A stretch of DNA of 64,000 nucleotides, taken from the human T2T-CHM13v2.0 reference genome, Homo sapiens. The notes under the pieces were generated by a model. It worked only from the letters and a program-made list of their open reading frames with translations, did no database searches and had not been told where the DNA came from. Shown one piece after another: positions 1 through 31,842 of this stretch. The position numbers and the translations under genes were made by a program. The first letter of the stretch is position 1, and every line of letters begins with the position of its first letter. The DNA is taken from NCBI RefSeq assembly GCF_009914755.1, contig NC_060945.1. One strand, written 5' to 3'.

Positions 1-134
1 GTGGAAAACTGAGAAAATTGCTTTGTGCTGTAGAGTCTGGCATTCGTTGTAGATTAAAGCTTATTTTTCTGGATGTAAATCTTATTCAATAAAATACTAC
101 TCTTTATAATAAAAAACAAAGACACTGGTGATGT

Positions 135-450
135 GAAGTCATTATCCTCAGCAAACTAATCCAGGAACAGAAAACCAAACGCCACATTCTCACTTATAAT
201 GGGAGCTGAAAAATGGGATCACGTGGACACAGGAAGGGGAACAACACACACTGGGGCCTTTCGGGAGGCAGAGCGTTAAGAAAAACAGCTACCGCATGCT
301 GGGCTTAATACCTAGGTGATGGGTTGACAGGTGCAGCAAACCACCGTGGCACACGTTTACCTTAGTAACAAATCTGCACAGCCTGCCCATATATTCCAGA
401 ACTTAGAAACGAAACGAAAGCAAAGAAAACGAGAAAGCGATAGCAAAACG
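135..450 (+). mobile_element. Old L1P (L1PA/PB-type) 3' end with degenerate A-rich tail; present in every unit
   Basis: Typical L1 3'UTR text: ATTATCCTCAGCAAACTAA...GGGCTTAATACCTAGGTGATGGGTTGACAGGTGCAGCAAACCAC...GGCACACGTTTACC, followed by an A-rich tail. Confidence 0.85.
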
Positions 451-619
451 CTAACGGCGAAACAGAGTTTCAAACTCAGAAAGTGAGAGACCAATGTTTG
501 GTTCAAATCATGGTTCTCAACCCAGGTGCCATAAGGTCAGGATAAAGAATTTGATGACGTATTGTAAATAAGACATGCAGCGGAGGACCAGAAAAATCGT
601 TCTCAACATACGTGTGGCT

Positions 620-1080
620 TCGAGTTCAACGGTGACGCTATCTACAGTGACATAGCATTAGATTCCAAAGGGCCGAGTCCCGCAAGACTGGCCTCCCACA
701 CTAATAATAATGGGAAGCGCTACGTTGCTTTACCTGTGCTTCTCAGCAACTGGCTATAAATCAGGTTTCCACCACTCCCAGTTTTAGTTGCATTCATTTG
801 CTGGAAGAGCTCACAGCACGCAGGGAAACACTGACATTTCCCATTTTTTGTATTTTAGCAGATATTGCAAAAACTTCAGAAAAAACTTTTGGGCCCGGCA
901 TGTGGGGAGGGGCTCACTGCCTTCCAGGAAGTGTTATCCAGAAGCTCTCTAAACCCAGTCCTTTTGGGTTTTTATGGAGACCTCATTCTATAGGCATGAT
1001 GGGTTAAACCATAGGCTATTGGTGATCAACTCAACCTGGGGCTCTCAACCCTCCCTGGAAATTGGGGTTGAGGCTTTGCC
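620..1080. mobile_element. MER21-like LTR fragment; present in every unit
   Basis: TTTACCTGTGCTTCT...ACTGGCTATAAATC...GCTCACAG...AGGGAAACAC...TTTTGGGTTTTTATGGAG...ATTGGTGATCAACT resembles the MER21 consensus as I recall it. Confidence 0.7.
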
Positions 1081-1628
1081 ATTCTCAGTCTGAGTAAAAG
1101 AATTTACGCAAACGGAATTTTAAAACAGATTAGCATATCTGGAAACTTAACTAGATGACGGAATTATCTGGAGCCACACCTTGATATTCCTAACCCGAGC
1201 ACCCTCATCCAAAGAATGCTCCACCCAACTGGCTCCCAAGTCTCTACGGGGTTCCAGAGCAAAAGAATGTTTATACAGCGCATATCTCCACCTTTTCTTC
1301 AAAGTCTTTTCGCTTACACGGAAAGACTTCTTCAACTGCCATGCATCAGGGTCAGGGGGAGGTCTTGTTACAACACAGATCTGCGGATCTCCGGGGCTTG
1401 ATTGTGGCAAGGATGCTGCTGGTGTCAAAACCACAACGTGGGAACCACAGAACCACTAGTTGGTTTTCAGTGTTTCAGTGCATACAATTCCTAATATATC
1501 TGGCCAAGAAAACTTGTAAGTTCTTAGATTGTCCCAAAGGTGGCGCATGAAATCAAATCAGGAGAACAGTTTCCTACGAGGTGTAGCCTGGGAACCTTGG
1601 GGGTGACTGATGGAAAGGAGGAGTGAAG

Positions 1629-1699
1629 CTCCGCCCTTTCCGCTGCGAGGCTGCGCCCGAGGCTATTTAAACCCACCCTGGCTGGCCTGTACTCAGATC
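1629..1699 (+). promoter_or_regulatory. Candidate Pol II core promoter, unit 1 (GC box, TATA, Inr)
   Basis: CTCCGCCC (Sp/KLF box) 1629-1636; TATTTAAA 1664-1671; TCAGATC fits Inr YYANWYY with +1 A at 1695, 31 nt after the first T of the TATA box; locally CpG-rich. Confidence 0.6.
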
Positions 1700-1881
1700 T
1701 TCGCAGAGCGGAGCAGCGGCCGGAGCGTTTGGCGGACTCTGCGTGGACTTGGAGCTCACAGCGTCTTGCGACTTGGAAGCGGATTCAGAGGACAGGACAG
1801 AACACTTGGGCAAGTGAATCTCTGTCTGTCTGTCTGTCTCATTGGTTGGTTTATTTCCATTTTCTTAAGGAGCACATACCT

Positions 1882-1953
1882 CACACCACACACACACAAA
1901 CACACACACACACACGCACGCACTCACGCACACACACACGCACACACACACAC
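1882..1953. repeat. (CA)n/(CACG)n microsatellite in the putative leader; length varies between units
   Basis: Visible CACACA/CACGCA run; 10 bp shorter in unit 3. Confidence 0.95.
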
Positions 1954-2014
1954 TAATTCATTCTGCGGGTTAGGAAATTAGTAGGGGTCTCTGGGAGCTG
2001 CAGGTTTCCTAATC

Positions 2015-5000
2015 ATGTCTGCATCTAAGAACACTAGGGTCTTGTCTGGCTCTTCTTATGAACGGTCCCCCAGCCCGGACTCCCCAAGATCCATGCTAGC
2101 CTCACCCAGCTTCTCCCTCTCCCCTCTCAGAAACTCAGACTTAAGAGGAAGCTCCTCACCAGGGATCCGGAGCTACCATTCACCATCCCCTAGGGCTTCA
2201 CCACACTCACCTCTGTCATCACCAGTATCCCACAATCTCCCATTTCCCTGTCCTATCCGTGATGGACAATCCATGAAGCCATTGGGCTCTCCCGTGTCCT
2301 CCTCTGAGGATTCTACAGAGTCACCACGTTCATCAGTAATATACCACATGTTCCTACTGCCATCACCCAGCAGCTCACCCCCAGCTCTCTGGGAGTCTCC
2401 TGGGTCTCCCAGCTACTCTCCAAACAACCCCAGATTTCAGCTGGAGTCAGCCCCCCACACCCAGGAATCACCTGCAAACTCACGAGCCTCACGGTGCTCC
2501 TCCCCTATGTCTTTCATCTCTTCACCCCCAGGCCTCAGGGACTCTCCTGTGGCTCCCAGTTACTCTCAAGCCATCCCCATGTTCCTGCGGGAGTCAGCCC
2601 CATGCACTCAGGAGTCCCCCAGAGACTCACAGGTCTCGGGAGAATATGAGCGCTCCCCCAGCCCTGACTCCTCAAGATTCATGCCTGCCTCACCCAGCAT
2701 CTACCTCTCCCCTCCCAGGAACTCAGACCCAAGGGGCAGCTCCTCACAAGGGATGTGGAAGTACTCTACATCATCCCGCAGGGCTTCACCACTCTCACAT
2801 CCGTCATCGGCAGAATTCCACAACTTTACATTTCCCTTTCCTAACCAAGCAGGACAATCACTCATGTCATTGTGTTCTCCCGTGTCCTCCTCTGGAGATT
2901 CCTCACAGTCACCCCATTCATCAATAATATACCATGTGTTCTTACTGCCATCATCCAGCAGCTCACCCCCAGCCACCAATGACTCTCCTGTCTGTCCCAG
3001 CTACTCTCCAACTACGCCCAGATTTCAGCGGGCGTCGGTATCCAACACCCCAGAAACACCTACAAACTCACAGACCTCAGTGAGATCCTCGCCAGTCTCT
3101 CTCACGTCTTCACCCCCAGGCCTTACGGACCCTCCAGTCTCTCCCAGCTACTATCCAACCACGCGCACATTTCAGCGCGGGTCAGATCCAGGAACCCAGG
3201 GAGCACCACCAAGCCCACCACTTTCACTGTGTTACTCCCCAGTCTCAAGCACGTCTTTATCTCCAACCCTCAGGGACTCTCCTGTCTGTCCCAGCTATTC
3301 TCCAACCACGCCCACGTTTCAGCGGGAGTCCGTTGCAGGCACCCAGCAATCACCACCAAACTCACCAATTTCACTCAATTACTCTCCAGTCTCTCTCATG
3401 TCTTCACCAGCCCTCAGGGACTCTCCCATTTGTCCCAGCTACTCTCCAACCACGCCCAGATTTCAGCTGGAAGCAGTTCCTTGCACCCAGGAATCACCAC
3501 CAAACTCACCAATTTCACTCAATTACTCCCCAGTCTCTCTCATGTCTTCACCATCCCTCAGGGACTCTCCCGTCTGTCTCAGCTACTCTCCAACCACGCC
3601 CACATTTCAGCTGGAGTACCTTCGAGGCACCCCGGAGTCACCACCAAACTCACCAATTTCACTCAATTACTCTCCAGTCTCTCTCATGTCTCCACCAGCC
3701 CTCAGGGACTCTCCCGACTGTCCCAGCTACTCCCCAACAACGCCCAGATTTCAGCTGGAAGCAGTTCCTTGCTCCCCAGAATCAACACCAAACTCACCAA
3801 TTTCACTCAATTACTCTCCAGTCTCTCTCATGTCTTCACCAGCCATCAGGGACTCTCCTGTCTGTCCCAGCTACTCTACAACCACGCCCACATTTCAGCT
3901 GGAGTCCGTTCGAGACACCCCGGAGTCACCACCAAACTCACCAATTTCACTCAATTACACTCCAGTCTCTCTCATGTCTTCACCAGCCATCAGGGACTCT
4001 CCCGTCTGTCCCAGCTACTCTCCAAAGACGCCCACATTTCAGCTGGAGTCTGTTCCAGGCACCCTGGAGTCACCACCAAACTCACCAATTTCACTCAATT
4101 ACTCTCCAGTCTCTCTCATGTCTTCACCAGCCCTCAGGGACCCTCCTGTCTGTCCCAGCTACTCTCCAACCACCCCCAGATTTCAGCTGGAGTCAGTTCC
4201 AGGCACCCCGGAGTCACCACCAAACTCACCAGTTTCACTGAGTTACTCCCCGGTCTCTCTCATGTCTTCACCGCCAGCCCTCAGGGACTCTCCTGTGTGT
4301 CCCAGCTACTCTCCAACCACGCCCACATTTCAGCTGGAGTCAGTTCCAGGCACCCCGGAGTCACCACCAAACTCACCAATTTCACTCAATTACTCTCCAG
4401 TCTCTCTCATGTCTTCACCAGCCCTCAGCGACTCTCCTGTCTGTCCCAGCTACTCTCCAACCACGCCCAGATTTCAGCTGGAAGCAGTTCCTTGCACCCC
4501 AGAATCACCTCCAAACTCACCAATTTCACTCAATTACTCTCTAGTCTCTCTCATGTCTTCACCAGTCCTCAGGGACCCTCCTGTCTGTCCCAGCTACTCT
4601 CCATCCACCCCCAGATTTCAGTTGGAGTCAGTTCCAGGCACCGCGGAGTCACCACCAAACTCACCAGTTTCACTGAGTTACTCCCCGTTCTCTCTCATGT
4701 CTTCACCGCCAGCCCTCAGGGACTCTCCTGTTTGTCCCCGCTACTCTCCAACCACGCCCACATTCCAGCTGGAGTCACTTGCAGGCACCCAGGAATTACC
4801 TACAAACTCAGCAGTTTCACTGAGTTACTCCCCAGTCTCTCTCATGTCTTCACCCCCAGCCCCCTGGGACTCTCCTGTCTGTCCCAGCTCCTCTCCCACC
4901 ACGCCCAGATTTCAGAGGGAGTCAGCCTCCCACACTCCGGAATCACCTACAGACTCACAGACTTCACGGAGGTCCTCCCTGGTCTCTCTCAGGTCTTTGC

Positions 5001-5860
5001 CCTCAGCCCACAGGGACTCCTGTGTCTCTTTCAGCTACTCTCGAAACTTCTCTAGATTCCAGCTGGACTCAGTTCCAGGCACCCACGACACACCACCAAA
5101 CTCACGAATTTCACTGACTTACTCCCCAGTCTCTCTCATGTTCTCACCCCCAGCCCTCAGGGACTCTTCTGTCTCTCTCAGCTACTCTCCAGCCATCTCC
5201 ACATCACACCTGGGGTCAGCTCCCCACACCCAGGAATCACCTACAAACTCACGGACCTTACTGCAACCCTCCACCATTTCTTTCACCTCTTCAACCCCTG
5301 CTTTCAGGGACTCTCCTGTGTCTCCCAGCTTCTCTCCAGCCTTCCCCAGATTTCTGCCACAGTCAGCCCCAGGCACCCAGGGTTACCCTGGACACTCACA
5401 GGCCTCACGAGACTATTTCCCAATGACTTGTATCTATAGAGGGATGGCTCCCATACTTCCCTCGGTGACCTCAAACCCATCTCCACTTACACTCAGACAC
5501 TCCCAGGGCCTGACAGCTACTCCCCGTTATTGTCCTTCAGCTCGAAGCCCTGACCCATCTACTAGCCAACATGATGCAGCTACCTGGCCATGTCTCCACA
5601 TTTCTGGGGAGGGCCCCACACCCAGCCGCAGAAGAGCCCCTCCTGCATTCCGTCCTCACACACAGGCCTGTCCATCCACTTGCTACTGTCACACTCTTGC
5701 CAGCAGAGGAGGCCCCTGTAATGGCCGATATCACCGCCCAGTCTATCCTCACCCCACAGCTGTGCAGCGGGACCCTCCTGCTGGCCCACGTGGCTGCCAC
5801 AGCCCATGCTGGCACGACGCTCCAGCATGTCGGCGTCCCTGCGGGCCACGCTACCGCTGA
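2015..5860 (+). CDS. Putative 1281-aa Ser/Pro/Thr-rich repeat protein (48/49-aa repeats, YSPTTP motifs, Cys/His-rich C-terminus), copy 1, intact
   Basis: Uninterrupted 3846-nt ATG-to-TGA ORF; A at -3; first AUG after the predicted TSS; translation unproven. Confidence 0.55.
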   Translation: MSASKNTRVLSGSSYERSPSPDSPRSMLASPSFSLSPLRNSDLRGSSSPGIRSYHSPSPRASPHSPLSSPVSHNLPFPCPIRDGQSMKPLGSPVSSSEDSTESPRSSVIYHMFLLPSPSSSPPALWESPGSPSYSPNNPRFQLESAPHTQESPANSRASRCSSPMSFISSPPGLRDSPVAPSYSQAIPMFLRESAPCTQESPRDSQVSGEYERSPSPDSSRFMPASPSIYLSPPRNSDPRGSSSQGMWKYSTSSRRASPLSHPSSAEFHNFTFPFPNQAGQSLMSLCSPVSSSGDSSQSPHSSIIYHVFLLPSSSSSPPATNDSPVCPSYSPTTPRFQRASVSNTPETPTNSQTSVRSSPVSLTSSPPGLTDPPVSPSYYPTTRTFQRGSDPGTQGAPPSPPLSLCYSPVSSTSLSPTLRDSPVCPSYSPTTPTFQRESVAGTQQSPPNSPISLNYSPVSLMSSPALRDSPICPSYSPTTPRFQLEAVPCTQESPPNSPISLNYSPVSLMSSPSLRDSPVCLSYSPTTPTFQLEYLRGTPESPPNSPISLNYSPVSLMSPPALRDSPDCPSYSPTTPRFQLEAVPCSPESTPNSPISLNYSPVSLMSSPAIRDSPVCPSYSTTTPTFQLESVRDTPESPPNSPISLNYTPVSLMSSPAIRDSPVCPSYSPKTPTFQLESVPGTLESPPNSPISLNYSPVSLMSSPALRDPPVCPSYSPTTPRFQLESVPGTPESPPNSPVSLSYSPVSLMSSPPALRDSPVCPSYSPTTPTFQLESVPGTPESPPNSPISLNYSPVSLMSSPALSDSPVCPSYSPTTPRFQLEAVPCTPESPPNSPISLNYSLVSLMSSPVLRDPPVCPSYSPSTPRFQLESVPGTAESPPNSPVSLSYSPFSLMSSPPALRDSPVCPRYSPTTPTFQLESLAGTQELPTNSAVSLSYSPVSLMSSPPAPWDSPVCPSSSPTTPRFQRESASHTPESPTDSQTSRRSSLVSLRSLPSAHRDSCVSFSYSRNFSRFQLDSVPGTHDTPPNSRISLTYSPVSLMFSPPALRDSSVSLSYSPAISTSHLGSAPHTQESPTNSRTLLQPSTISFTSSTPAFRDSPVSPSFSPAFPRFLPQSAPGTQGYPGHSQASRDYFPMTCIYRGMAPILPSVTSNPSPLTLRHSQGLTATPRYCPSARSPDPSTSQHDAATWPCLHISGEGPTPSRRRAPPAFRPHTQACPSTCYCHTLASRGGPCNGRYHRPVYPHPTAVQRDPPAGPRGCHSPCWHDAPACRRPCGPRYR
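2975..5400 (+). repeat. 144/147-bp satellite array (ACRO1-like), unit 1
   Basis: ~17 monomers of CAGGGACTCTCCTGTCTGTCCCAGCTACTCTCCAACCACGCCC...; homogeneous centre, diverged edges. Confidence 0.88.
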
Positions 5861-6069
5861 CATGGCTAGCATCACCCTCCTTCCTGGCAGTGACACTGCT
5901 GATTTGAACCCCAGTTTCACAGCTGTCATTTGTAAATAGGACCATTTTCCCTTTTCTCTCTCCCTTCCATTCACAGGGCTTCTCATTCCCTCTGTTTCTG
6001 CCTCCGTTTCAGAGATTTACTCACCTTTTTCTCTCTCACTATGTCTGCCGTGGTCTCCATAAGAGTGTG

Positions 6070-6410
6070 CCACATACAATTGCCCCATTAAAAGTCATGA
6101 ATTGAGTGGATTTTAGTATACCTGTGGTTGGGCACATTCAATTTTAATTCGCAATCCATTTTAGAAGGTTTTATCACCCCCGACCAGAGAAACACCCTGT
6201 GGACATTAGTCACTCCTCATTCTGTCTCAAACCCTCTCCCTGACCCTCAGCCCTAGGTAACAACTGCATAGAGCGATCAACCCCATATGCATAGATTTTC
6301 ATATTGTGGACATTTCCTATAAACGGAATTTCACAATAAGTGAGCTTTTGTGACTGACATAACACTTTTAGCACAATATTTTCAAGATTCATCCACATTG
6401 CAGCTTTACC
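6070..6410 (-). mobile_element. Ancient L1M 3'-end fragment; present in every unit
   Basis: CATACAATT...GTGGATTTTAGTATA...GGACATTTCCTATAAACGGAAT...TTTTCAAGATTCATCCAC resembles antisense L1MB/ME 3' UTR. Confidence 0.65.
6087..6092 (+). terminator. Candidate poly(A) signal ATTAAA, 227 nt after the ORF stop; conserved in all five units
   Basis: ATTAAA followed by GT/T-rich sequence; lies at the edge of an antisense L1M remnant, so it may be incidental. Confidence 0.35.
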
Positions 6411-6458
6411 CACAGGGGGAAACCGCATTTTCTGGTTTCAGTAACACCGGGTGTTTTC

Positions 6459-6536
6459 TCCTTCCTTCCGTCTTTCCTTCCTTCCTTCCTTCCTTCCTTC
6501 CTTCCTTCCTTCCTTCCTTCCTTCCTCCCTTCCTCC
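6459..6536. repeat. (CCTT)n microsatellite; length varies between units
   Basis: Visible; 8 bp shorter in unit 2, longer in units 3-5. Confidence 0.95.
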
Positions 6537-6769
6537 CATTTCTCTCTTATTCCTTCTGCCCTCTCTCTTTCATATGCCTTAGGTGCATCCTACGTCCTGC
6601 GTCTTTTTGGGGAATCCTCGACAGGTGCTGGAAAATTGTGTTATTGTAATTATTTACCGGTATCTCTCTTTCATGGTTCTCCATCAGTTGTAAGCATCTA
6701 TTGGTTTATCCCAGGTCACTAAGTATATTTTAATTAGCTACACCTGTTTTTCTTTATACACCTGTTTCT

Positions 6770-6890
6770 GGAGTATAGGGTCGCATACTCATAAACCCAG
6801 TGTAACTCAGAAACGCATCTAATATTCCAATAGACCCATCATAACGTTGAAAAATCATAAATCAAACCAACTTAAGTCACGATTTGTCGC
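6770..6890 (+). mobile_element. Tigger5/MER47-like DNA transposon remnant; present in every unit
   Basis: ATAAACCCA...CCCATCATAACGTTGAAAAATCATAAATCAAACCA resembles CpG-decayed MER47 termini. Confidence 0.45.
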
Positions 6891-8764
6891 TGGATATGGG
6901 CTCCATCAATTCCATTGTATTCAATAATGCTGTACACCATTAACAATGGCAGACTGATTGGGCGTGGATGTGGATAACATTATAAAAATCAGTTATTAGA
7001 GGGATACTTTAACCTGACGGAAGAGCTGATCTAATGGTATTAGTACAGTGATGATTATGTGAGATGTTTTGAGACAGAGTAGTACATTTGTGTATGAGAT
7101 TCTGTGGCTTTTTTCACTTAGTAGGAACCTTTGTGTGTGGAAAACTGAGAAAATTGCTTTGTGCTGTAGAGTCTGGCATTCGTTGTAGATTAAAGCTTAT
7201 TTTTCTGGAAGTAAATCTTATTCAATAAAATACTACTCTTTATAATAAAAAACAAAGACACTGGTGATGTGAAGTCATTATCCTCAGCAAACTAATCCAG
7301 GAACAGAAAACCAAACGCCACATTCTCACTTATAATGGGAGCTGAAAAATAGGATCATGTGGACACAGGAAGGGGAACAACACACACTGGGGCCTTTCGG
7401 GAGGCAGAGCGTTAAGAAAAACAGCTACCGCATGCTGGGCTTAATACCTAGGTGATGGGTTGACAGGTGCAGCAAACCACCGTGGCACACGTTTACCATA
7501 GTAACAAATCTGCACAGCCTGCCCATATATTGCAGAACTTAGAAACGAAACGAAAGCAAAGAAAACGAGAAAGCGATAGCAAAACGCTAACTGCGAAACA
7601 GAGTTTCAAACTCAGAAAGTGAGAGACCAATGTTTGGTTCAAATCATGGTTCTCAACCCAGGTGCCATAAGGTCAGGATAAAGAATTTGATGACGTATTG
7701 TAAATAAGACATGCAGCGGAGGACCAGAAAAATCGTTCTCAACATACGTGTGGCTTCGAGTTCAACGGTGACGCTATCTACAGTGACATAGCATTAGATT
7801 CCAAAGGGCCGAGTCCCGCAAGACTGGCCTCCCACACTAATAATAATGGGAAGCGCTACGTTGCTTTACCTGTGCTTCTCAGCAACTGGCTATAAATCAG
7901 GTTTCCACCACTCCCAGTTTTAGTTGCATTCATTTGCTGGAAGAGCTCACAGCACGCAGGGAAACACTGACATTTCCCATTTTTTGTATTTTAGCAGATA
8001 TTGCAAAAACTTCAGAAAAAACTTTTGGGCCCAGCATGTGGGGAGGGGCTCACTGCCTTCCAGGAAGTGTTATCCAGAAGCTCTCTAAACCCAGATCTTT
8101 TGGGTTTTTATGGAGACCTCATTCTATAGGCATGATGGGTTAAACCATAGGCTATTGGTGATCAACTCAACCTGGGGCTCTCAACCCTCCCTGGAAATTG
8201 CGGTTGAGGCCTTGCCATTCTCAGTCTGAGTAAAAGAATTTACGCAAACGGAATTTTAAAACAGATTAGCATATCTGGAAACTTAACTAGATGACGGAAT
8301 TATCTGGAGCCACACCTTGATATTCCTAACCCGAGCACCCTCATCCAACGAATGCTCCACCCAACTGGCTCCCAAGTCTCTACGGGGTTCCAGAGCAAAA
8401 GAATGTTTATACAACGCATATCTCCACCTTTTCTTCAAAGTCTTTTCGCTTACACGGAAAGACTTCTTCAACTGCCATTCATCAGGGTCAGGGGGAGGTC
8501 TTGTTACAACACAGATCTGCGGATCTCCGGGGTTTGATTGTGGCAAGGATGCTGCTGGTGTCAAAACCACAACGTGGGAACCACAGAACCACTAGTTGGT
8601 TTTCAGTGTTTCAGTGCATACAATTCCTAATATATCTGGCCAAGAAAACTTGTAAGTTCTTAGATTGTCCGAAAGGTGGCGCATGAAATCAAATCAGGAG
8701 AACAGTTTCCTACGAGGTGTAGCCTGGGAACCTTGGGGGTGACTGATGGAAAGGAGGAGTGAAG

Positions 8765-8835
8765 CTCCGCCCTTTCCGCTGCGAGGCTGCGCCCGAGGCT
8801 ATTTAAACCCACCCTGGCTGGCCTGTACTCAGATC
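8765..8835 (+). promoter_or_regulatory. Candidate core promoter, unit 2
   Basis: Same GC box/TATTTAAA (8800)/Inr as unit 1. Confidence 0.6.
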
Positions 8836-9150
8836 TTCGCAGAGCGGAGCAGCGGCCGGAGCGTTTGGCGGACTCTGCGTGGACTTGGAGCTCACAGCGT
8901 CTTGCGACTTGGAAGCGGATTCAGAGGACAGGACAGAACACTTGGGCAAGTGAATCTCTGTCTGTCTGTCTGTCTCATTGGTTGGTTTATTTCCATTTTC
9001 TTAAGGAGCACATACCTCACACCACACACACACAAACACACACACACACACGCACGCACTCACGCACACACACACGCACACACACACACTAATTCATTCT
9101 GCGGGTTAGGAAATTAGTAGGGGTCTCTGGGAGCTGCAGGTTTCCTAATC

Positions 9151-12100
9151 ATGTCTGCACCTAAGAACACTAGGGTCTTGTCTGGCTCTTCTTATGAACG
9201 GTCCCCCAGCCCGGACTCCCCAAGATCCATGCTAGCCTCACCCAGCTTCTCCCTCTCCCCTCTCAGAAACTCAGACTTAAGAGGAAGCTCCTCACCAGGG
9301 ATCCGGAGCTACCATTCACCATCCCCTAGGGCTTCACCACACTCACCTCTGTCATCACCAGTATCCCACAATCTCCCATTTCCCTGTCCTATCCGTGATG
9401 GACAATCCATGAAGCCATTGGGCTCTCCCGTGTCCTCCTCTGAGGATTCTACAGAGTCACCACGTTCATCAGTAATATACCACATGTTCCTACTGCCATC
9501 ACCCAGCAGCTCACCCCCAGCTCTCTGGGAGTCTCCTGGGTCTCCCAGCTACTCTCCAAACAACCCCAGATTTCAGCTGGAGTCAGCCCCCCACACCCAG
9601 GAATCACCTGCAAACTCACGAGCCTCACGGTGCTCCTCCCCTATGTCTTTCATCTCTTCACCCCCAGGCCTCAGGGACTCTCCTGTGGCTCCCAGTTACT
9701 CTCAAGCCATCCCCATGTTCCTGCGGGAGTCAGCCCCATGCACTCAGGAGTCCCCCAGAGACTCACAGGTCTCGGGAGAATATGAGCGCTCCCCCAGCCC
9801 TGACTCCTCAAGATTCATGCCTGCCTCACCCAGCATCTACCTCTCCCCTCCCAGGAACTCAGACCCAAGGGGCAGCTCCTCACAAGGGATGTGGAAGTAC
9901 TCTACATCATCCCGCAGGGCTTCACCACTCTCACATCCGTCATCGGCAGAATTCCACAACTTTACATTTCCCTTTCCTAACCAAGCAGGACAATCACTCA
10001 TGTCATTGTGTTCTCCCGTGTCCTCCTCTGGAGATTCCTCACAGTCACCCCATTCATCAATAATATACCATGTGTTCTTACTGCCATCATCCAGCAGCTC
10101 ACCCCCAGCCACCAATGACTCTCCTGTCTGTCCCAGCTACTCTCCAACTACGCCCAGATTTCAGCGGGCGTCGGTATCCAACACCCCAGAAACACCTACA
10201 AACTCACAGACCTCAGTGAGATCCTCGCCAGTCTCTCTCACGTCTTCACCCCCAGGCCTTACGGACCCTCCAGTCTCTCCCAGCTACTATCCAACCACGC
10301 GCACATTTCAGCGCGGGTCAGATCCAGGAACCCAGGGATCACCAGCAAGCCCACCACTTTCACTGTGTTACTCCCCAGTCTCAAGCACGTCTTTATCTCC
10401 AACCCTCAGGGACTCTCCTGTCTGTCCCAGCTATTCTCCAACCACGCCCACGTTTCAGCGGGAGTCCGTTGCAGGCACCCAGCAATCACCACCAAACTCA
10501 CCAATTTCACTCAATTACTCTCCAGTCTCTCTCATGTCTTCACCAGCCCTCAGGGACTCTCCCATTTGTCCCAGCTACTCTCCAACCACGCCCAGATTTC
10601 AGCTGGAAGCAGTTCCTTGCACCCAGGAATCACCACCAAACTCACCAATTTCACTCAATTACTCCCCAGTCTCTCTCATGTCTTCACCATCCCTCAGGGA
10701 CTCTCCCGTCTGTCTCAGCTACTCTCCAACCACGCCCACATTTCAGCTGGAGTACCTTCGAGGCACCCCGGAGTCACCACCAAACTCACCAATTTCACTC
10801 AATTACTCTCCAGTCTCTCTCATGTCTCCACCAGCCCTCAGGGACTCTCCCGACTGTCCCAGCTACTCCCCAACAACGCCCAGATTTCAGCTGGAAGCAG
10901 TTCCTTGCTCCCCAGAATCAACACCAAACTCACCAATTTCACTCAATTACTCTCCAGTCTCTCTCATGTCTTCACCAGCCATCAGGGACTCTCCTGTCTG
11001 TCCCAGCTACTCTACAACCACGCCCACATTTCAGCTGGAGTCCGTTCGAGACACCCCGGAGTCACCACCAAACTCACCAATTTCACTCAATTACACTCCA
11101 GTCTCTCTCATGTCTTCACCAGCCATCAGGGACTCTCCCGTCTGTCCCAGCTACTCTCCAAAGACGCCCACATTTCAGCTGGAGTCTGTTCCAGGCACCC
11201 TGGAGTCACCACCAAACTCACCAATTTCACTCAATTACTCTCCAGTCTCTCTCATGTCTTCACCAGCCCTCAGGGACCCTCCTGTCTGTCCCAGCTACTC
11301 TCCAACCACCCCCAGATTTCAGCTGGAGTCAGTTCCAGGCACCCCGGAGTCACCACCAAACTCACCAGTTTCACTGAGTTACTCCCCGGTCTCTCTCATG
11401 TCTTCACCGCCAGCCCTCAGGGACTCTCCTGTGTGTCCCAGCTACTCTCCAACCACGCCCACATTTCAGCTGGAGTCAGTTCCAGGCACCCCGGAGTCAC
11501 CACCAAACTCACCAATTTCACTCAATTACTCTCCAGTCTCTCTCATGTCTTCACCAGCCCTCAGCGACTCTCCTGTCTGTCCCAGCTACTCTCCAACCAC
11601 GCCCAGATTTCAGCTGGAAGCAGTTCCTTGCACCCCAGAATCACCTCCAAACTCACCAATTTCACTCAATTACTCTCTAGTCTCTCTCATGTCTTCACCA
11701 GTCCTCAGGGACCCTCCTGTCTGTCCCAGCTACTCTCCATCCACCCCCAGATTTCAGTTGGAGTCAGTTCCAGGCACCGCGGAGTCACCACCAAACTCAC
11801 CAGTTTCACTGAGTTACTCCCCGTTCTCTCTCATGTCTTCACCGCCAGCCCTCAGGGACTCTCCTGTTTGTCCCCGCTACTCTCCAACCACGCCCACATT
11901 CCAGCTGGAGTCACTTGCAGGCACCCAGGAATTACCTACAAACTCAGCAGTTTCACTGAGTTACTCCCCAGTCTCTCTCATGTCTTCACCCCCAGCCCCC
12001 TGGGACTCTCCTGTCTGTCCCAGCTCCTCTCCCACCACGCCCAGATTTCAGAGGGAGTCAGCCTCCCACACTCCGGAATCACCTACAGACTCACAGACTT

Positions 12101-12996
12101 CACGGAGGTCCTCCCTGGTCTCTCTCAGGTCTTTGCCCTCAGCCCACAGGGACTCTTGTGTCTCTTTCAGCTACTCTCGAAACTTCTCTAGATTCCAGCT
12201 GGACTCAGTTCCAGGCACCCACGACACACCACCAAACTCACGAATTTCACTGACTTACTCCCCAGTCTCTCTCATGTTCTCACCCCCAGCCCTCAGGGAC
12301 TCTTCTGTCTCTCTCAGCTACTCTCCAGCCATCTCCACATCACACCTGGGGTCAGCTCCCCACACCCAGGAATCACCTACAAACTCACGGACCTTACTGC
12401 AACCCTCCCCCATTTCTTTCACCTCTTCAACCCCTGCTTTCAGGGACTCTCCTGTGTCTCCCAGCTTCTCTCCAGCCTTCCCCAGATTTCTGCCACAGTC
12501 AGCCCCAGGCACCCAGGGTTACCCTGGACACTCACAGGCCTCACGAGACTATTTCCCAATGACTTGTATCTATAGAGGGATGGCTCCCATACTTCCCTCG
12601 GTGACCTCAAACCCATCTCCACTTACACTCAGACACTCCCAGGGCCTGACAGCTACTCCCCGTTATTGTCCTTCAGCTCGAAGCCCTGACCCATCTACTA
12701 GCCAACATGATGCAGCTACCTGGCCATGTCTCCACATTTCTGGGGAGGGCCCCACACCCAGCCGCAGAAGAGCCCCTCCTGCATTCCGTCCTCACACACA
12801 GGCCTGTCCATCCACTTGCTACTGTCACACTCTTGCCAGCAGAGGAGGCCCCTGTAATGGCCGATATCACCGCCCAGTCTATCCTCACCCCACAGCTGTG
12901 CAGCGGGACCCTCCTGCTGGCCCACGTGGCTGCCACAGCCCATGCTGGCACGACGCTCCAGCATGTCGGCGTCCCTGCGGGCCACGCTACCGCTGA
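9151..12996 (+). CDS. Putative 1281-aa Ser/Pro/Thr-rich repeat protein, copy 2, intact
   Basis: Intact ORF; differs from copy 1 at about 4 residues (S4P, GAPPS/GSPAS, PST/PSP). Confidence 0.55.
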   Translation: MSAPKNTRVLSGSSYERSPSPDSPRSMLASPSFSLSPLRNSDLRGSSSPGIRSYHSPSPRASPHSPLSSPVSHNLPFPCPIRDGQSMKPLGSPVSSSEDSTESPRSSVIYHMFLLPSPSSSPPALWESPGSPSYSPNNPRFQLESAPHTQESPANSRASRCSSPMSFISSPPGLRDSPVAPSYSQAIPMFLRESAPCTQESPRDSQVSGEYERSPSPDSSRFMPASPSIYLSPPRNSDPRGSSSQGMWKYSTSSRRASPLSHPSSAEFHNFTFPFPNQAGQSLMSLCSPVSSSGDSSQSPHSSIIYHVFLLPSSSSSPPATNDSPVCPSYSPTTPRFQRASVSNTPETPTNSQTSVRSSPVSLTSSPPGLTDPPVSPSYYPTTRTFQRGSDPGTQGSPASPPLSLCYSPVSSTSLSPTLRDSPVCPSYSPTTPTFQRESVAGTQQSPPNSPISLNYSPVSLMSSPALRDSPICPSYSPTTPRFQLEAVPCTQESPPNSPISLNYSPVSLMSSPSLRDSPVCLSYSPTTPTFQLEYLRGTPESPPNSPISLNYSPVSLMSPPALRDSPDCPSYSPTTPRFQLEAVPCSPESTPNSPISLNYSPVSLMSSPAIRDSPVCPSYSTTTPTFQLESVRDTPESPPNSPISLNYTPVSLMSSPAIRDSPVCPSYSPKTPTFQLESVPGTLESPPNSPISLNYSPVSLMSSPALRDPPVCPSYSPTTPRFQLESVPGTPESPPNSPVSLSYSPVSLMSSPPALRDSPVCPSYSPTTPTFQLESVPGTPESPPNSPISLNYSPVSLMSSPALSDSPVCPSYSPTTPRFQLEAVPCTPESPPNSPISLNYSLVSLMSSPVLRDPPVCPSYSPSTPRFQLESVPGTAESPPNSPVSLSYSPFSLMSSPPALRDSPVCPRYSPTTPTFQLESLAGTQELPTNSAVSLSYSPVSLMSSPPAPWDSPVCPSSSPTTPRFQRESASHTPESPTDSQTSRRSSLVSLRSLPSAHRDSCVSFSYSRNFSRFQLDSVPGTHDTPPNSRISLTYSPVSLMFSPPALRDSSVSLSYSPAISTSHLGSAPHTQESPTNSRTLLQPSPISFTSSTPAFRDSPVSPSFSPAFPRFLPQSAPGTQGYPGHSQASRDYFPMTCIYRGMAPILPSVTSNPSPLTLRHSQGLTATPRYCPSARSPDPSTSQHDAATWPCLHISGEGPTPSRRRAPPAFRPHTQACPSTCYCHTLASRGGPCNGRYHRPVYPHPTAVQRDPPAGPRGCHSPCWHDAPACRRPCGPRYR
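10111..12536 (+). repeat. 144/147-bp ACRO1-like array, unit 2
   Basis: Near-identical to unit 1 array. Confidence 0.88.
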
Positions 12997-15892
12997 CATG
13001 GCTAGCATCACCCTCCTTCCTGGCAGTGACACTGCTGATTTGAACCCCAGTTTCACAGCTGTCATTTGTAAATAGGACCATTTTCCCTTTTCTCTCTCCC
13101 TTCCATTCACAGGGCTTCTCATTCCCTCTGTTTCTGCCTCCGTTTCAGAGATTTACTCACCTTTTTCTCTCTCACTATGTCTGCCGTGGTCTCCATAAGA
13201 GTGTGCCACATACAATTGCCCCATTAAAAGTCATGAATTGAGTGGATTTTAGTATACCTGTGGTTGGGCACATTCAATTTTAATTCGCAATCCATTTTAG
13301 AAGGTTTTATCACCCCCGACCAGAGAAACACCCTGTGGATATTAGTCACTCCTCATTCTGTCTCAAACCCTCTCCCTGACCCTCAGCCCTAGGTAACAAC
13401 TGCATAGAGCGATCAACCCCATATGCATAGATTTCCATATTGTGGACATTTCCTATAAACGGAATTTCACAATAAGTGAGCTTTTGTGACTGACATAACA
13501 CTTTTAGCACAATATTTTCAAGATTCATCCACATTGCAGCTTTACCCACAGGGGGAAACCGCATTTTCTGGTTTCAGTAACACCGGGTGTTTTCTCCTTC
13601 CTTCCGTCTTTCCTTCCTTCCTTCCTTCCTTCCTTCCTTCCTTCCTTCCTTCCTCCCTTCCTCCCATTTCTCTCTTATTCCTTCTGCCCTCTCTCTTTCA
13701 TATGCCTTAGGTGCATCCTACGTCCTGCGTCTTTTTGGGGAATCCTCGACAGGTGCTGGAAAATTGTGTTATTGTAATTATTTACCGGTATCTCTCTTTC
13801 ATGGTTCTCCATCAGTTGTAAGCATCTATTGGTTTATCCCAGGTCACTAAGTATATTTTAATTAGCTACACCTGTTTTTCTTTATACACCTGTTTCTGGA
13901 GTATAGGGTCGCATACTCATAAACCCAGTGTAACTCAGAAACGCATCTAATATTCCAATAGACCCATCATAACGTTGAAAAATCATAAATCAAACCAACT
14001 TAAGTCACGATTTGGCGCTGGATATGGGCTCCATCAATTCCATTGTATTCAATAATGCTGTACACCATTAACAATGGCAGACTGATTGGGCGTGGATGTG
14101 GATAACATTATAAAAATCAGTTATTAGAGGGATACTTTAACCTGACGGAAGAGCTGATCTAATGGTATTAGTACAGTGATGATTATGTGAGATGTTTTGA
14201 GACAGAGTAGTACATTTGTGTATGAGATTCTGTGGCTTTTTTCACTTAGTAGGAACCTTTGTGTGTGGAAAACTGAGAAAATTGCTTTGTGCTGTAGAGT
14301 CTGGCATTCGTTGTAGATTAAAGCTTATTTTTCTGGAAGTAAATCTTATTCAATAAAATACTACTCTTTATAATAAAAAACAAAGACACTGGTGATGTGA
14401 AGTCATTATCCTCAGCAAACTAATCCAGGAACAGAAAACCAAACGCCACATTCTCACTTATAATGGGAGCTGAAAAATAGGATCATGTGGACACAGGAAG
14501 GGGAACAACACACACTGGGGCCTTTCGGGAGGCAGAGCGTTAAGAAAAACAGCTACCGCATGCTGGGCTTAATACCTAGGTGATGGGTTGACAGGTGCAG
14601 CAAACCACCGTGGCACACGTTTACCATAGTAACAAATCTGCACAGCCTGCCCATATATTGCAGAACTTAGAAACGAAACGAAAGCAAAGAAAACGAGAAA
14701 GCGATAGCAAAACGCTAACTGCGAAACAGAGTTTCAAACTCAGAAAGTGAGAGACCAATGTTTGGTTCAAATCATGGTTCTCAACCCAGGTGCCATAAGG
14801 TCAGGATAAAGAATTTGATGACGTATTGTAAATAAGACATGCAGCGGAGGACCAGAAAAATCGTTCTCAACATACGTGTGGCTTCGAGTTCAACGGTGAC
14901 GCTATCTACAGTGACATAGCATTAGATTCCAAAGGGCCGAGTCCCGCAAGACTGGCCTCCCACACTAATAATAATGGGAAGCGCTACGTTGCTTTACCTG
15001 TGCTTCTCAGCAACTGGCTATAAATCAGGTTTCCACCACTCCCAGTTTTAGTTGCATTCATTTGCTGGAAGAGCTCACAGCACGCAGGGAAACACTGACA
15101 TTTCCCATTTTTTGTATTTTAGCAGATATTGCAAAAACTTCAGAAAAAACTTTTGGGCCCAGCATGTGGGGAGGGGCTCACTGCCTTCCAGGAAGTGTTA
15201 TCCAGAAGCTCTCTAAACCCAGATCTTTTGGGTTTTTATGGAGACCTCATTCTATAGGCATGATGGGTTAAACCATAGGCTATTGGTGATCAACTCAACC
15301 TGGGGCTCTCAACCCTCCCTGGAAATTGCGGTTGAGGCCTTGCCATTCTCAGTCTGAGTAAAAGAATTTACGCAAACGGAATTTTAAAACAGATTAGCAT
15401 ATCTGGAAACTTAACTAGATGACGGAATTATCTGGAGCCACACCTTGATATTCCTAACCCGAGCACCCTCATCCAACGAATGCTCCACCCAACTGGCTCC
15501 CAAGTCTCTACGGGGTTCCAGAGCAAAAGAATGTTTATACAACGCATATCTCCACCTTTTCTTCAAAGTCTTTTCGCTTACACGGAAAGACTTCTTCAAC
15601 TGCCATGCATCAGGGTCAGGGGGAGGTCTTGTTACAACACAGATCTGCGGATCTCCGGGGTTTGATTGTGGCAAGGATGCTGCTGGTGTCAAAACCACAA
15701 CGTGGGAACCACAGAACCACTAGTTGGTTTTCAGTGTTTCAGTGCATACAATTCCTAATATATCTGGCCAAGAAAACTTGTAAGTTCTTAGATTGTCCCA
15801 AAGGTGGCGCATGAAATCAAATCAGGAGAACAGTTTCCTACGAGGTGTAGCCTGGGAACCTTGGGGGTGACTGATGGAAAGGAGGAGTGAAG

Positions 15893-15963
15893 CTCCGCCC
15901 TTTCCGCTGCGAGGCTGCGCCCGAGGCTATTTAAACCCACCCTGGCTGGCCTGTACTCAGATC
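15893..15963 (+). promoter_or_regulatory. Candidate core promoter, unit 3
   Basis: Same GC box/TATTTAAA (15928)/Inr. Confidence 0.55.
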
Positions 15964-16276
15964 TTCGCAGAGCGGAGCAGCGGCCGGAGCGTTTGGCGGA
16001 CTCTGCGTGGACTTGGAGCTCACAGCGTCTTGCGACTTGGAAGCGGATTCAGAGGACAGGACAGAACACTTGGGCAAGTGAATCTCTGTCTGTCTGTCTG
16101 TCTCATTGGTTGGTTTATTTCCATTTTCTTAAGGAGCACATACCTCACACCACACACACACAAACACACACACACACGCACGCACGCACGCACACACACA
16201 CGCACACACACACACTAATTCATTCTGCGGGTTAGGAAATTAGTAGGGGTCTCTGGGAGCTGCAGGTTTCCTAATC

Positions 16277-24767: not shown

Positions 24768-24838
24768 CTCCGCCCTTTCCGCTGCGAGGCTGCGCCCGAG
24801 GCTATTTAAACCCACCCTGGCTGGCCTGTACTCAGATC
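24768..24838 (+). promoter_or_regulatory. Candidate core promoter, unit 4
   Basis: Same GC box/TATTTAAA (24803)/Inr. Confidence 0.6.
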
Positions 24839-31771: not shown

Positions 31772-31842
31772 CTCCGCCCTTTCCGCTGCGAGGCTGCGCC
31801 CGAGGCTATTTAAACCCACCCTGGCTGGCCTGTACTCAGATC
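31772..31842 (+). promoter_or_regulatory. Candidate core promoter, unit 5
   Basis: Same GC box/TATTTAAA (31807)/Inr. Confidence 0.55.

What the first reader, a model, noticed from the sequence alone, without database searches (positions are those of the whole stretch)
1629..6092. The ACRO1-like satellite looks like the coding VNTR of a multicopy gene in a 7-kb macrosatellite (D4Z4/DUX4-like layout)
Seen: every full unit has, in order, GC box, TATA, Inr, a 320-nt AUG-free leader, an ATG with A at -3, a 3.7-3.8-kb ORF, and ATTAAA. Monomer lengths are multiples of three (144/147). The main frame stays open through both the young core and the old diverged flanks, while the other two + frames close in the flanks. 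Three of five copies are intact. Established: macrosatellites can carry one ORF per unit (D4Z4/DUX4, RS447/USP17), and repeat masking plus multimapping hides such genes. Inference: this is a real, probably tissue-restricted (germline or early embryo is a guess) gene family masked as satellite. I cannot check whether automated annotation already predicts it.
Basis: partly seen in the sequence, partly recalled or inferred. Interest (0 to 1): 0.92.

Follow-up and report, generated by a model that had tools for sequence, protein, structure and literature searches.

The report
Repeated gene inside ACRO satellite units
Each ~7-kb unit of the ACRO repeat on human acrocentric short arms carries a long serine/proline-rich reading frame with promoter-like and polyadenylation signals; relatives in a New World monkey keep the same frame, so it is probably a real but uncharacterised multicopy gene.

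Summary
Window units 1, 2 and 4 carry intact ORFs of 1281, 1281 and 1233 codons. Each has a GC box, TATA, Inr, an ATG-free 320-nt leader and ATTAAA. Units 3 and 5 are broken.

The repeat core is open by composition alone, but the flanks are not. There the ORF frame has 0 stops against 15 and 8 in the other + frames.

Genome-wide, 122 of 124 scored copies have no stop in the N-terminal 322 codons. Across 23 unselected array units, nonsense variants are depleted (3 seen, 11.1 expected, P=0.006). Dispersed solo copies show no depletion (5 v 4.3).

A marmoset protein (832 aa) and more distant unnamed relatives share the N-terminus, the 49-aa repeat and a Cys-rich tail motif, CPSTCYCHTLA.

Against: synonymous changes show no excess (66 v 68.2), indel depletion is not significant, and translation is unproven.

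Prior art exists. The 6-kb ACRO/ACRE composite, the CTD-like in-silico translation, cleavage-stage and DUX4-induced ACRO1 RNA, and one "putative protein coding gene" remark are all in print.

Verdict: probably a fast-evolving, disordered-protein gene family in a macrosatellite (about 0.57).

The parts
1628..1636 (+). GC box (GCTCCGCCC); a second GC-rich box lies at 1653-1659
   Evidence: Read. Identical or one base off in the 9 of 9 aligned units that cover it. It is a consensus match only; its function was not tested.
1664..1671 (+). TATA box (TATTTAAA)
   Evidence: Unchanged in 9 of 9 aligned units, solo copies included.
1693..1699 (+). Initiator-like TCAGATC; predicted start site is the A at 1695, 31 nt after the TATA start
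   Evidence: conserved. The start site is inferred from spacing and was not measured.
1695..2014 (+). 320-nt ATG-free leader holding a (CTGT)n and a (CA)n microsatellite. It also has a donor-like GGGCAAGT near 1808-1815 and acceptor-like sites near 1868 and 2003.
   Evidence: 0 ATG in this stretch. The microsatellite lengths vary between copies. The donor-like site reads GGGTAAGT in solo copies. Splicing is not shown.
2015..5860 (+). ORF of unit 1: 1281 codons plus TGA. The protein is 22.7% Ser and 18.4% Pro, with 111 SP and 24 YSP motifs.
2015..2980 (+). N-terminal part: MSASKNT..., then block X (about 125 aa), two old 147-nt monomers, and a duplicated block X'
   Evidence: It is 73% identical and colinear with marmoset P0002.
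2981..5380 (+). Repeat core of 144/147-nt (48/49-aa) monomers, consensus DSPVCPSYSPTTPRFQLESVPGTPESPPNSPISLNYSPVSLMSSPALR. This is the ACRO1 satellite of the literature.
   Evidence: The match to ACRO1 is by period, place and published description (PMC7714431); it was not aligned to a Dfam consensus.
5381..5857 (+). C-terminal tail, non-repetitive and Cys/His-rich, with the conserved motifs QGLTAT and CPSTCYCHTLA
   Evidence: Predicted disordered: mean pLDDT 45.9, one 6-residue helix over the CYCHTL motif.
6087..6092 (+). ATTAAA poly(A) signal, 227 nt after the stop, followed by a GT-rich stretch
   Evidence: Unchanged in 10 of 10 aligned units. Its use is not shown.
9151..12996 (+). ORF of unit 2 (1281 aa, intact)
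16277..21855 (+). Unit 3 gene copy, broken: stop at codon 54 and a 1-nt deletion opposite 2733. Its repeat is expanded to about 28 monomers. The listed 1302-aa ORF (17947-21855) starts inside the repeat.
25154..28855 (+). ORF of unit 4 (1233 aa, intact)
32158..34393 (+). Unit 5 gene copy, broken: the same codon-54 stop, a 2-nt deletion opposite 2317, two 143-nt monomers and a further stop. This is the edge unit of the array.
1..38147 (+). The ACRO composite array within the window (five units). It continues upstream of the window to at least chr21:69,021.
   Evidence: Array end mapped by BLAST of unit 1 against 36000-52000. Upstream units seen.

Best explanation
The ACRO composite repeat is a macrosatellite whose unit is a gene.

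Each unit has a TATA/Inr promoter, an ATG-free leader, one long exon and an ATTAAA signal. The exon encodes a disordered Ser/Pro/Thr-rich protein of 0.9-1.6 thousand residues. That protein has a fixed N-terminus, a variable number of 48/49-aa 'RDSPVCPSYSPTTPRF...' repeats, and a fixed Cys/His-rich tail.

The gene is older than the array. More distant relatives have the same ends with only one or a few repeats. In anthropoid primates the locus, together with flanking transposon fragments, was amplified into arrays on acrocentric short arms and on 3p and 4p.

Shown here: the anatomy, its copy number, the depletion of stop codons specific to this frame, and the colinear relatives.

Inferred: the units are transcribed in the sense direction from 1695 in cleavage-stage embryos, which is where the literature places ACRO1 RNA, and the transcript is translated. 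Selection would act on keeping a full-length product, not on most individual residues.

The likely mode of action is a guess from composition: a phospho-regulated, Pol II CTD-like (YSPT-rich) disordered protein acting in the nucleus around genome activation.
For: 1. Frame-specific openness. In the non-repetitive flanks (1443 nt) the ORF frame has 0 stops, against 15 and 8 in the other + frames. The ORF frame is at least as stop-prone per substitution: 0.032-0.046 against 0.015-0.036. 0 of 5000 shuffles of the 5' flank are open.

2. Genome-wide retention. 122 of 124 scored copies, out of 1986 first-look candidates, have no stop in the N-terminal 322 codons. By my count of that table, 107 of 124 sit in open frames of 900 aa or more. 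15 of 23 fetched or window array units run from the canonical start to the canonical stop, and 2 more are nearly complete.

3. Nonsense depletion with controls. Among 267 substitution events in 23 unselected array units, 3 make stops in the ORF frame against 11.1 expected (P=0.006). The other frames show 5 v 6.2 and 7 v 7.9. Variants private to four dispersed solo copies show 5 v 4.3.

4. Two array subfamilies differ by 5% (N-terminal part) to 8% (C-terminal part) at the DNA level and both keep the whole ORF. Simulated substitutions alone leave both flanks open in about 0.17 x 0.21 of runs.

5. The old internal duplication X/X' is 25% diverged over 588 nt (146 differences), with no stop and no indel. 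Simulated substitutions alone keep it open in 2.2% of runs.

6. Cross-species. Marmoset P0002 (832 aa) is colinear from the N-terminus to the C-tail: 73% identity over 330 aa, with one 1-aa gap in the first 360. P0088 (355 aa, unnamed source) has the same N-terminus, one repeat and the same tail, with 35% identity overall in the BLASTP alignment. P0086 has many repeats plus the tail. Conserved islands stand out in otherwise divergent sequence: (I/V/M)YH(M/I/V)F, RDSPVSPSYSP, QGLTAT and CPSTCYCHTLA.

7. Core monomers give dN/dS 0.50 in the ORF frame against 0.94 and 1.34 in the other frames. Variability by codon position is 0.103/0.068/0.129.

8. The GC box, TATA, Inr, ATG context and ATTAAA are kept in all aligned units.

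9. Print, passages read: ACRO1 RNA peaks at the 4-cell stage (PMC6545021); it rises after cleavage (PMC12287470); it is induced by DUX4 (PMC8990217, PMC11467316, 10.64898/2025.12.22.696056); ACRO1 is hypomethylated in spermatogonial stem cells and sperm (PMC5832720).
Against: - There is no protein-level constraint in the flanks. Synonymous events number 66 against 68.2 expected. Differences by codon position are about 17/16/20. NG86 dN/dS of 0.55-0.62 is only slightly below the control frames, 0.67-0.87 and 0.99-1.61. Old monomers show no coding signature.
- Indel depletion is not significant under a strict control: 1 indel per 231 substitution events in the ORF flanks, against 5-6 per 496 in complex non-ORF sequence. 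My earlier, higher indel rate was inflated by indels next to microsatellites, so the 'with indels' simulation figures overstate the case.
- Arrays against solos for stops (3 of 267 v 5 of 120) is only about P=0.07 by my arithmetic.
- The marmoset model runs through about 75 residues of frame-shifted repeat, so the repeat tolerates another frame.
- The red colobus and baboon models are cut by frameshifts near residue 262.
- 6 of 23 units, and 17 of 124 scored copies, are truncated.
- Array copies homogenise, so the 124 copies represent few independent lineages.
- Boots et al. found no stable ACRO1 transcript in HeLa cells, and found that sense ACRO1 blocks Pol II elongation in cis (PMC7714431, section 7 and passages read).
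- The published RNA data are counts per repeat family. They give no strand, start site or coding evidence.
- No DUX4 motif (a motif I recalled) occurs in the units, even with one mismatch.
- No Pfam family and no solved relative were found.
Confidence: 0.57

Rival explanations
1. It is a relic. An ancestral single-copy gene (P0088-like) was captured and amplified as a macrosatellite. The arrays now evolve without protein-level selection. ORFs look intact because the units are young and homogenised from a few intact masters. Any present function, or none, lies in the DNA or chromatin of acrocentric short arms.
For: - Synonymous and missense events match neutral expectation: 66 v 68.2.
- Flank substitution rates equal those of non-coding parts of the unit: about 8% in both the C-tail and the post-stop region.
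- Indel depletion is not significant.
- Truncated units spread within arrays. The codon-54 stop is shared by units 3 and 5. Four chr3 units share a 462-aa open frame.
- The Old World monkey models are truncated.
- Copy number changes between generations (PMC12746033, passage read).
Against: - Nonsense variants are depleted 3.7-fold in arrays, only in this frame, while solo copies fit the null.
- Two subfamilies 5-8% apart, the marmoset copy, and the 25%-diverged internal duplicate are all open.
- Neutral homogenisation fixes broken and intact variants alike, so it does not explain frame-specific depletion.
Confidence: 0.28
2. The functional product is RNA or the act of transcription: a Pol II-binding satellite RNA that stalls elongation, or a cleavage-stage nuclear or nucleolar RNA. 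On this reading the open frame is a by-product of a C-rich, G-poor, CA-rich sequence kept for RNA-level reasons.
For: - Sense ACRO1 RNA was selected as a Pol II-binding aptamer and represses reporters in cis (PMC7714431, abstract and passages read).
- The strand has a strong GC skew, -0.39 to -0.52.
- Most monomers lack stops in all three + frames.
- The repeat tolerates a frame shift in marmoset.
Against: - It does not explain openness of only one frame in the non-repetitive flanks.
- It does not explain the conserved ATG context, or the peptide-level motif islands shared with relatives at 35-48% identity.
- The per-substitution stop risk is not lower in the ORF frame.
- This reading can coexist with a coding role.
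Confidence: 0.12
3. It is a chance ORF: a 3n-periodic, stop-poor satellite gives long ORFs with no selection at any time.
For: The core (2981-5380) is nearly open in a second + frame, with 2073 nt free of stops. 10 of 18 monomers have no stop in any + frame.
Against: - The flanks show 0 stops against 15 and 8.
- 0 of 5000 shuffles of the 5' flank are open.
- Colinear ORFs exist in distant relatives.
- Nonsense variants are depleted in arrays, P=0.006.
Confidence: 0.03

Closest known systems
D4Z4 macrosatellite / DUX4
   Same: Both are kilobase-scale tandem units that each hold one intronless-looking ORF. Both have copies on acrocentric short arms, RNA at the 4-cell stage, and hypomethylation linked to expression (my knowledge of D4Z4, plus PMC6545021 and PMC5832720 for ACRO1).
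   Different: The unit is 6.4-7.1 kb rather than 3.3 kb. The product has no homeodomain or any Pfam domain. The ORF contains its own 147-nt repeat. Every unit has ATTAAA, whereas stable DUX4 mRNA needs a distal poly(A) site (recalled). This ORF evolves near-neutrally.
RS447 / USP17L, CT47 and TAF11L arrays (genes as megasatellite units)
   Same: One complete gene per tandem unit, copy-number variable, and restricted to germline or embryo (recalled; CT47 is listed among gene-bearing arrays in PMC2588610).
   Different: Those encode folded, recognisable domains under evident constraint. PMC2588610 (passages read) places the ~6-kb Acro repeat in a table section headed 'Megasatellite arrays' and describes it by its transposon fragments and Acro satellite blocks. 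No gene is mentioned for it in the passages I read.
ACRO / ACRE composite repeat as published (Warburton 2008; Boots 2020; 2025-26 T2T preprints)
   Same: It is the same object: a ~6-kb unit made of ACRO1 plus L1PA10, MER21B and L1MB8 fragments, on acrocentric short arms, 3p and 4p, and primate-specific as DNA (PMC2588610, PMC7714431, 10.64898/2025.12.22.696095; passages read).
   Different: Print treats it as a satellite. Boots et al. translated only the 147-nt consensus and noted about 50% identity to the Pol II CTD. A full gene model, the unique N- and C-terminal parts, the retention statistics and the non-repeat relatives were not found in six full-text searches.
RNA polymerase II CTD (RPB1)
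   Same: It is Tyr-Ser-Pro-Thr rich: SYSP.TP occurs 10 times and YSP 24 times. Automatic names call the primate models 'RPB1(-like)'.
   Different: There are no tandem heptads; the period is 48/49 aa. No polymerase domains are present, and there was no Pfam hit to any Rpb1 family. The likeness is one of composition, not homology.
Coding VNTR genes with disordered Pro/Ser/Thr repeats (mucins, involucrin)
   Same: An in-frame minisatellite inside one large exon; repeat number varies between copies (ORFs of 896 to 1569 aa); the repeats evolve fast between fixed ends.
   Different: No N-terminal hydrophobic signal peptide is visible (by eye). The whole gene is itself the unit of a higher-order array.

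Membership tests
Macrosatellite with one gene per unit (D4Z4/DUX4-type layout) | Head-to-tail units over 1 kb, highly similar to one another | tested here: met
   The period is 7136 bp. Units are 99-100% identical within the chr21 array.
Macrosatellite with one gene per unit (D4Z4/DUX4-type layout) | A complete ORF in most units | tested here: met
   3 of 5 window units are intact. 15 of 23 examined units are canonical end to end. 107 of 124 scored copies sit in open frames of 900 aa or more.
Macrosatellite with one gene per unit (D4Z4/DUX4-type layout) | The unit's own promoter drives a transcript | not testable with these tools
   Only consensus elements and their conservation were seen. Published ACRO1 RNA counts give no start site.
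Protein-coding gene under selection | The ORF is retained beyond neutral decay | tested here: met
   Stops in the flanks: 0 against 15 and 8. Nonsense events: 3 against 11.1 expected, P=0.006, and solos 5 against 4.3. Simulations.
Protein-coding gene under selection | dN/dS clearly below 1 | tested here: inconclusive
   Flanks: 0.55-0.62 by NG86, but synonymous events are 66 against 68.2 under a null matched to the mutation spectrum. Core monomers: 0.50 against 0.94 and 1.34.
Protein-coding gene under selection | Colinear ORF in other species | tested here: met
   Marmoset P0002. Unnamed P0088 and P0086. The red colobus and baboon models are truncated.
Protein-coding gene under selection | Evidence of translation (Ribo-seq, peptides) | not testable with these tools
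RPB1 C-terminal domain | Tandem YSPTSPS heptads attached to polymerase domains | tested here: not met
   The period is 48/49 aa. There are no Pfam families at E up to 1.
ACRO1 satellite (Repbase/Dfam) | 147-bp monomer, on acrocentric short arms, inside a ~6-kb composite | tested here: met
   Period 144/147. The window is on chr21p. The distribution over chromosomes 13, 14, 15, 21, 22, 3 and 4 matches PMC2588610 and PMC7714431. It was not aligned to the Dfam consensus, which is not held.
DUX4 direct target | DUX4 site TAAYBBAATCA (motif recalled) in or near the promoter | tested here: not met
   0 exact matches in the window. With one mismatch allowed there are 4 matches, all at 48-56 kb and outside the array.

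The most novel reading that the evidence does not exclude
Human acrocentric short arms, 3p and 4p carry well over a hundred working copies of an unannotated gene. Its product is a disordered, CTD-like (YSPT-rich) protein of about 1000-1400 residues, made in a burst at the 4-8-cell stage. It acts on the Pol II machinery, as a decoy or scaffold for CTD kinases, phosphatases or condensates. Its own repeat RNA binds Pol II and throttles its output. On this reading the array is a dosage device for embryonic genome activation, sited next to the nucleolar organisers.
Probability: 0.15. Interest if true: 0.88.

Novelty: new member of a known kind. Interest (0 to 1): 0.62.

Why it matters
If the ORF is expressed, one of the largest human gene families by copy number has been filed as satellite and left out of gene sets, expression matrices and proteomic databases.

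It sits on the least-studied parts of the genome, changes copy number between generations (PMC12746033), and belongs to a repeat whose RNA marks the cleavage-stage embryo and DUX4-expressing FSHD cells.

It would also be a clean case of selection for an open frame without selection on residues, and of a gene turned into a macrosatellite.

If it is a relic, the result still explains the odd 3n periodicity and stop-free strand of ACRO1, and why gene predictors keep calling 'RPB1-like' proteins in primates and in contaminated microbial assemblies.

Tried and rejected
- Pfam on the human protein and on four relatives: only IGFL in P0070.
- PDB sequence search with P0104: nothing.
- AlphaFold2 of the C-tail with a 6-row alignment: disordered, mean pLDDT 45.9, so no fold search was made.
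- ESM Atlas with P0088: no usable hit.
- DUX4 motif scan: none in the units.
- I looked for an ACRO-like exon within about 9 kb downstream of two human IGFL hits, because P0070 joins an IGFL domain to ACRO-like repeats. None was found, and only two of three IGFL hits were examined.
- The third homologue search (P0088) gave no names or taxa, so the species of P0086, P0088, P0104 and P0070 stay unknown.
- The T2T repeat paper I recalled under PMC9301658 is not held, so its treatment of ACRO composites was not seen.
- Supplements of bioRxiv preprints are closed. This includes PMC12746033 Suppl. Fig. 11, 'most variable genes', which may name the gene model.
- My first indel argument (8-9 indels per ~220 substitutions) was rejected after the stricter count.
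- The first nonsense test used hand-picked intact array units. It was replaced by the unselected test.
- The post-stop alignment was discarded because L015, L017 and W5 leave the unit there. One search drops those three rows.
- LOC107987360 exon 1 (39704-39995) lies outside the array, which ends at 38147, so it is not part of this feature.
Full report
**What is there.** The first 38,147 bases of the window are five head-to-tail units of a 7.1-kb repeat. The window is chr21:186001-250000 of T2T-CHM13. The array continues upstream to at least chr21:69,021.

Unit 1 has these features in order, read and checked:
- GC box at 1628-1636.
- TATTTAAA at 1664-1671.
- Initiator-like TCAGATC with its A at 1695.
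- A 320-nt leader with no ATG, holding (CTGT)n and (CA)n runs.
- ATG at 2015 in the context CTAATCATGTC.
- A 1281-codon ORF ending at 5860.
- ATTAAA at 6087-6092, followed by a GT-rich stretch.

Units 2 and 4 have intact ORFs of 1281 and 1233 codons. Units 3 and 5 share a C-to-A nonsense change at codon 54 and carry a 1-nt and a 2-nt deletion respectively. One caveat: the 1302-aa ORF of unit 3 starts inside the repeat and is not the canonical frame.

**Anatomy of the ORF.** The protein has four parts:
- A unique N-terminus, MSASKNT....
- A ~125-aa block X, then two old 147-nt monomers, then a duplicated block X'. This runs from 2015 to 2980.
- About 17 monomers of 144 or 147 nt (48/49 aa). These are the ACRO1 satellite of the literature.
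- A 160-aa non-repetitive Cys/His-rich tail.

Block X looks like an insertion inside a monomer. The protein is 22.7% Ser and 18.4% Pro, with 111 SP and 24 YSP motifs. It matches no Pfam family. The tail is predicted disordered.

**Is the ORF more than chance?** For the core, no. 10 of 18 regular monomers have no stop in any + frame, and a second frame is open for 2073 nt.

For the flanks, yes:
- The ORF frame has 0 stops against 15 and 8 in the other two + frames of the same 1443 nt.
- A random substitution is at least as likely to create a stop in the ORF frame as in the others.
- No shuffle of the 5' flank was open, 0 of 5000. 1.5% of 3'-flank shuffles were open.

**Copies elsewhere in the genome.**
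- The N-terminal 322 residues find 124 scored matches out of 1986 first-look candidates. They lie on chromosomes 13, 14, 15, 21 and 22 (several arrays each), on 3p and on 4p.
- 122 of the 124 have no internal stop. By my count of the table, 107 lie in open frames of 900 aa or more.
- I fetched 18 units without regard to intactness. With the five window units, 15 of 23 run from the canonical start to the canonical stop, two are nearly complete and six are broken.
- There are two subfamilies. One is on distal chr21 and chr15. The other covers most remaining arrays. They differ by about 5% in the N-terminal part and 8% in the tail and the non-coding remainder. Both keep the whole frame.
- Repeat number varies in frame, giving ORFs of 896 to 1569 aa.
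- 295 of 297 monomer spacings are 144 or 147 nt.

**Tests of selection.**
- Pairwise NG86 gives dN/dS of 0.55-0.62 in the ORF frame of the N-terminal part, against 0.67-0.87 and 0.99-1.61 in the control frames.
- Core monomers give 0.50 against 0.94 and 1.34, with codon-position variability 0.103/0.068/0.129. Old monomers and the X/X' pair show no such pattern.
- I then used a null that moves each observed change to a random site of the same base and CpG status. On 267 events in all 23 array units, synonymous changes number 66 against 68.2 expected. That is no excess.
- In the same test, nonsense changes number 3 against 11.1 expected (P=0.006). The other frames show 5 v 6.2 and 7 v 7.9. Variants private to the dispersed solo copies show 5 v 4.3.
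- An earlier version of this test used units I had picked. It gave the same direction but is superseded.
- Indels do not help. The ORF flanks have 1 event per 231 substitution events, against 5-6 per 496 in complex non-coding sequence of the same 19 units. My earlier, higher neutral indel rate came from microsatellite neighbourhoods, so the 'with indels' figures overstate the case.
- Substitution-only simulations leave the flanks open in 17% and 21% of runs for the subfamily split, and leave the X/X' pair open in 2.2% of runs.

The signal is therefore selection against truncation, not selection for particular residues.

**Solo copies as a control.** Single units lie on chr19 (an inverted pair at 47.23 and 47.28 Mb), chr20 (29.99 Mb) and chr22 (9.80 Mb). 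They carry frameshifts and stops at about the neutral rate. This calibrates the null.

**Other species.**
- A marmoset protein of 832 aa is colinear from MSASKNT to the tail. It is automatically named RPB1. Identity is 73% over the first 330 residues, with one 1-aa gap in the first 360. About 75 residues of its repeat are read in a shifted frame.
- The red colobus and baboon models, named 'RPB1-like', break near residue 262.
- A full HMMER scan found more distant, unnamed relatives.
- P0088 has the N-terminus, block X, one monomer and the tail. P0086 has many monomers and the tail.
- P0088 and P0100 also resemble the human sequence in the in-frame reading just upstream of the ATG (my reading).
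- Conserved islands stand out against 35-48% overall identity: (I/V/M)YH(M/I/V)F, RDSPVSPSYSP, QGLTAT and CPSTCYCHTLA.

This pattern is what a protein with a few functional motifs in a disordered chain looks like. It shows that the gene is older than its amplification. The species of the unnamed relatives are unknown.

**What print already says.**
- The ~6-kb Acro megasatellite was described in 2008. PMC2588610 places it in a table section headed 'Megasatellite arrays' and describes it by its transposon fragments and Acro satellite blocks; no gene is mentioned for it in the passages I read.
- Boots et al. named the unit ACRE. They translated the 147-nt consensus, noted about 50% identity to the Pol II CTD, showed that sense ACRO1 blocks elongation in cis, and found no stable transcript in HeLa (PMC7714431, section 7 and passages).
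- ACRO1 RNA peaks at the 4-cell stage (PMC6545021), rises after cleavage (PMC12287470), and is induced by DUX4 (PMC8990217, PMC11467316, 10.64898/2025.12.22.696056).
- The repeat is hypomethylated in the male germline (PMC5832720).
- A 2026 version of a T2T preprint calls ACRO a composite of ACRO1, L1PA10, MER21B and L1MB8 (10.64898/2025.12.22.696095).

For each of these I read only the listed passages. Six full-text searches found no paper giving a gene model, retention statistics or non-repeat relatives.

**Mechanism.**
- Shown: the gene-like unit, its copy number, the frame-specific stop depletion and the colinear relatives.
- Inferred: sense transcription from 1695 in cleavage-stage embryos, polyadenylation after 6092, and translation into a disordered, heavily phosphorylatable nuclear protein whose length matters more than its sequence.
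- A CTD-like mode of action is a guess from composition.
- No canonical DUX4 site lies in the units, so any DUX4 effect would be indirect or act through another site.

**Verdict.**
- Real or recently real multicopy gene: 0.57.
- Relic now drifting: 0.28.
- RNA-level function with an incidental frame: 0.12.
- Chance: 0.03.

It is a new member of a known kind, genes that are the unit of a macrosatellite, with partial prior mention in print.

Noticed in passing
P0104 (598 aa, unnamed source); human hits such as G000:C10:134685851-134686045 and many acrocentric and 1q12 sites: P0104 joins an ACRO-ORF-like N-terminus (40% identity over 204 aa) to a C-terminus with LLDELL...EEEFQALLDML. Its last 84 residues hit 148 places in the human genome. 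Their spread (10q26 end, acrocentric short arms, chr1 at about 128 Mb, Y, 3p) is, as I recall, that of D4Z4/DUX4-like repeats. It could be a real fusion or a merged gene model in another mammal.
   Followed up: partly
P0070 (381 aa, unnamed source); L023 and L024 (chr19 IGFL hits): P0070 has a Pfam IGFL domain followed by an ACRO-ORF-like start and three ~49-aa monomers. This hints that the ancestral gene lay beside an IGFL gene. No ACRO-like sequence was found within about 9 kb downstream of two human IGFL hits.
   Followed up: partly
window 1808-1815 and the matching place in L019, L020 and L022: A donor-like site just before the leader microsatellites reads GGGCAAGT in array units and GGGTAAGT in the solo copies. 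Acceptor-like sites lie near 1868 and 2003. A 5'-UTR intron that removes the microsatellites is possible.
   Followed up: no
L002 (G000:C14:2009-10000): This chr14 distal unit is a mosaic. Its N-terminal part is 2.1% from the chr21 type, while its tail and downstream part are about 8% away, like the other subfamily. This suggests exchange between subfamilies and chromosomes.
   Followed up: no
window 16436 and 32317: Units 3 and 5 share the same codon-54 nonsense change. One search also lists one TAA within the N-terminal match of C21:173735 and one within that of C15:155915; I did not check whether it is the same change. If it is, a broken variant has spread within and between arrays.
   Followed up: partly
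P0011 and P0018, plus many 'ena' hits: Fragments of this human ORF appear as predicted proteins in metagenome assemblies and in Plasmodium ovale wallikeri records (91-98% identity). They are most simply human contamination, as PMC6581058 describes for ACRO1.
   Followed up: no
L019 and L020 (G000:C19:47.23 and 47.28 Mb), L022 (C20:29.99 Mb), L021 (C22:9.80 Mb): These are dispersed single or paired units outside the big arrays. The chr19 pair is inverted and, together with the chr20 copy, shares a TGG-to-TGA change 14 codons before the normal stop. P0006, from a 64-Mb contig of an unnamed assembly, looks like the chr19 copy in another species.
   Followed up: partly
window 39704-39995: The first exon of the RefSeq pseudogene LOC107987360 ('translation initiation factor IF-2-like') lies about 1.6 kb beyond the end of the ACRO array and has no BLAST match to the unit.
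   Followed up: partly
window 36308-36474: A (CTTC)n run of about 41 copies lies in the last, more diverged unit. The same place is a length-variable microsatellite in other units.
   Followed up: no
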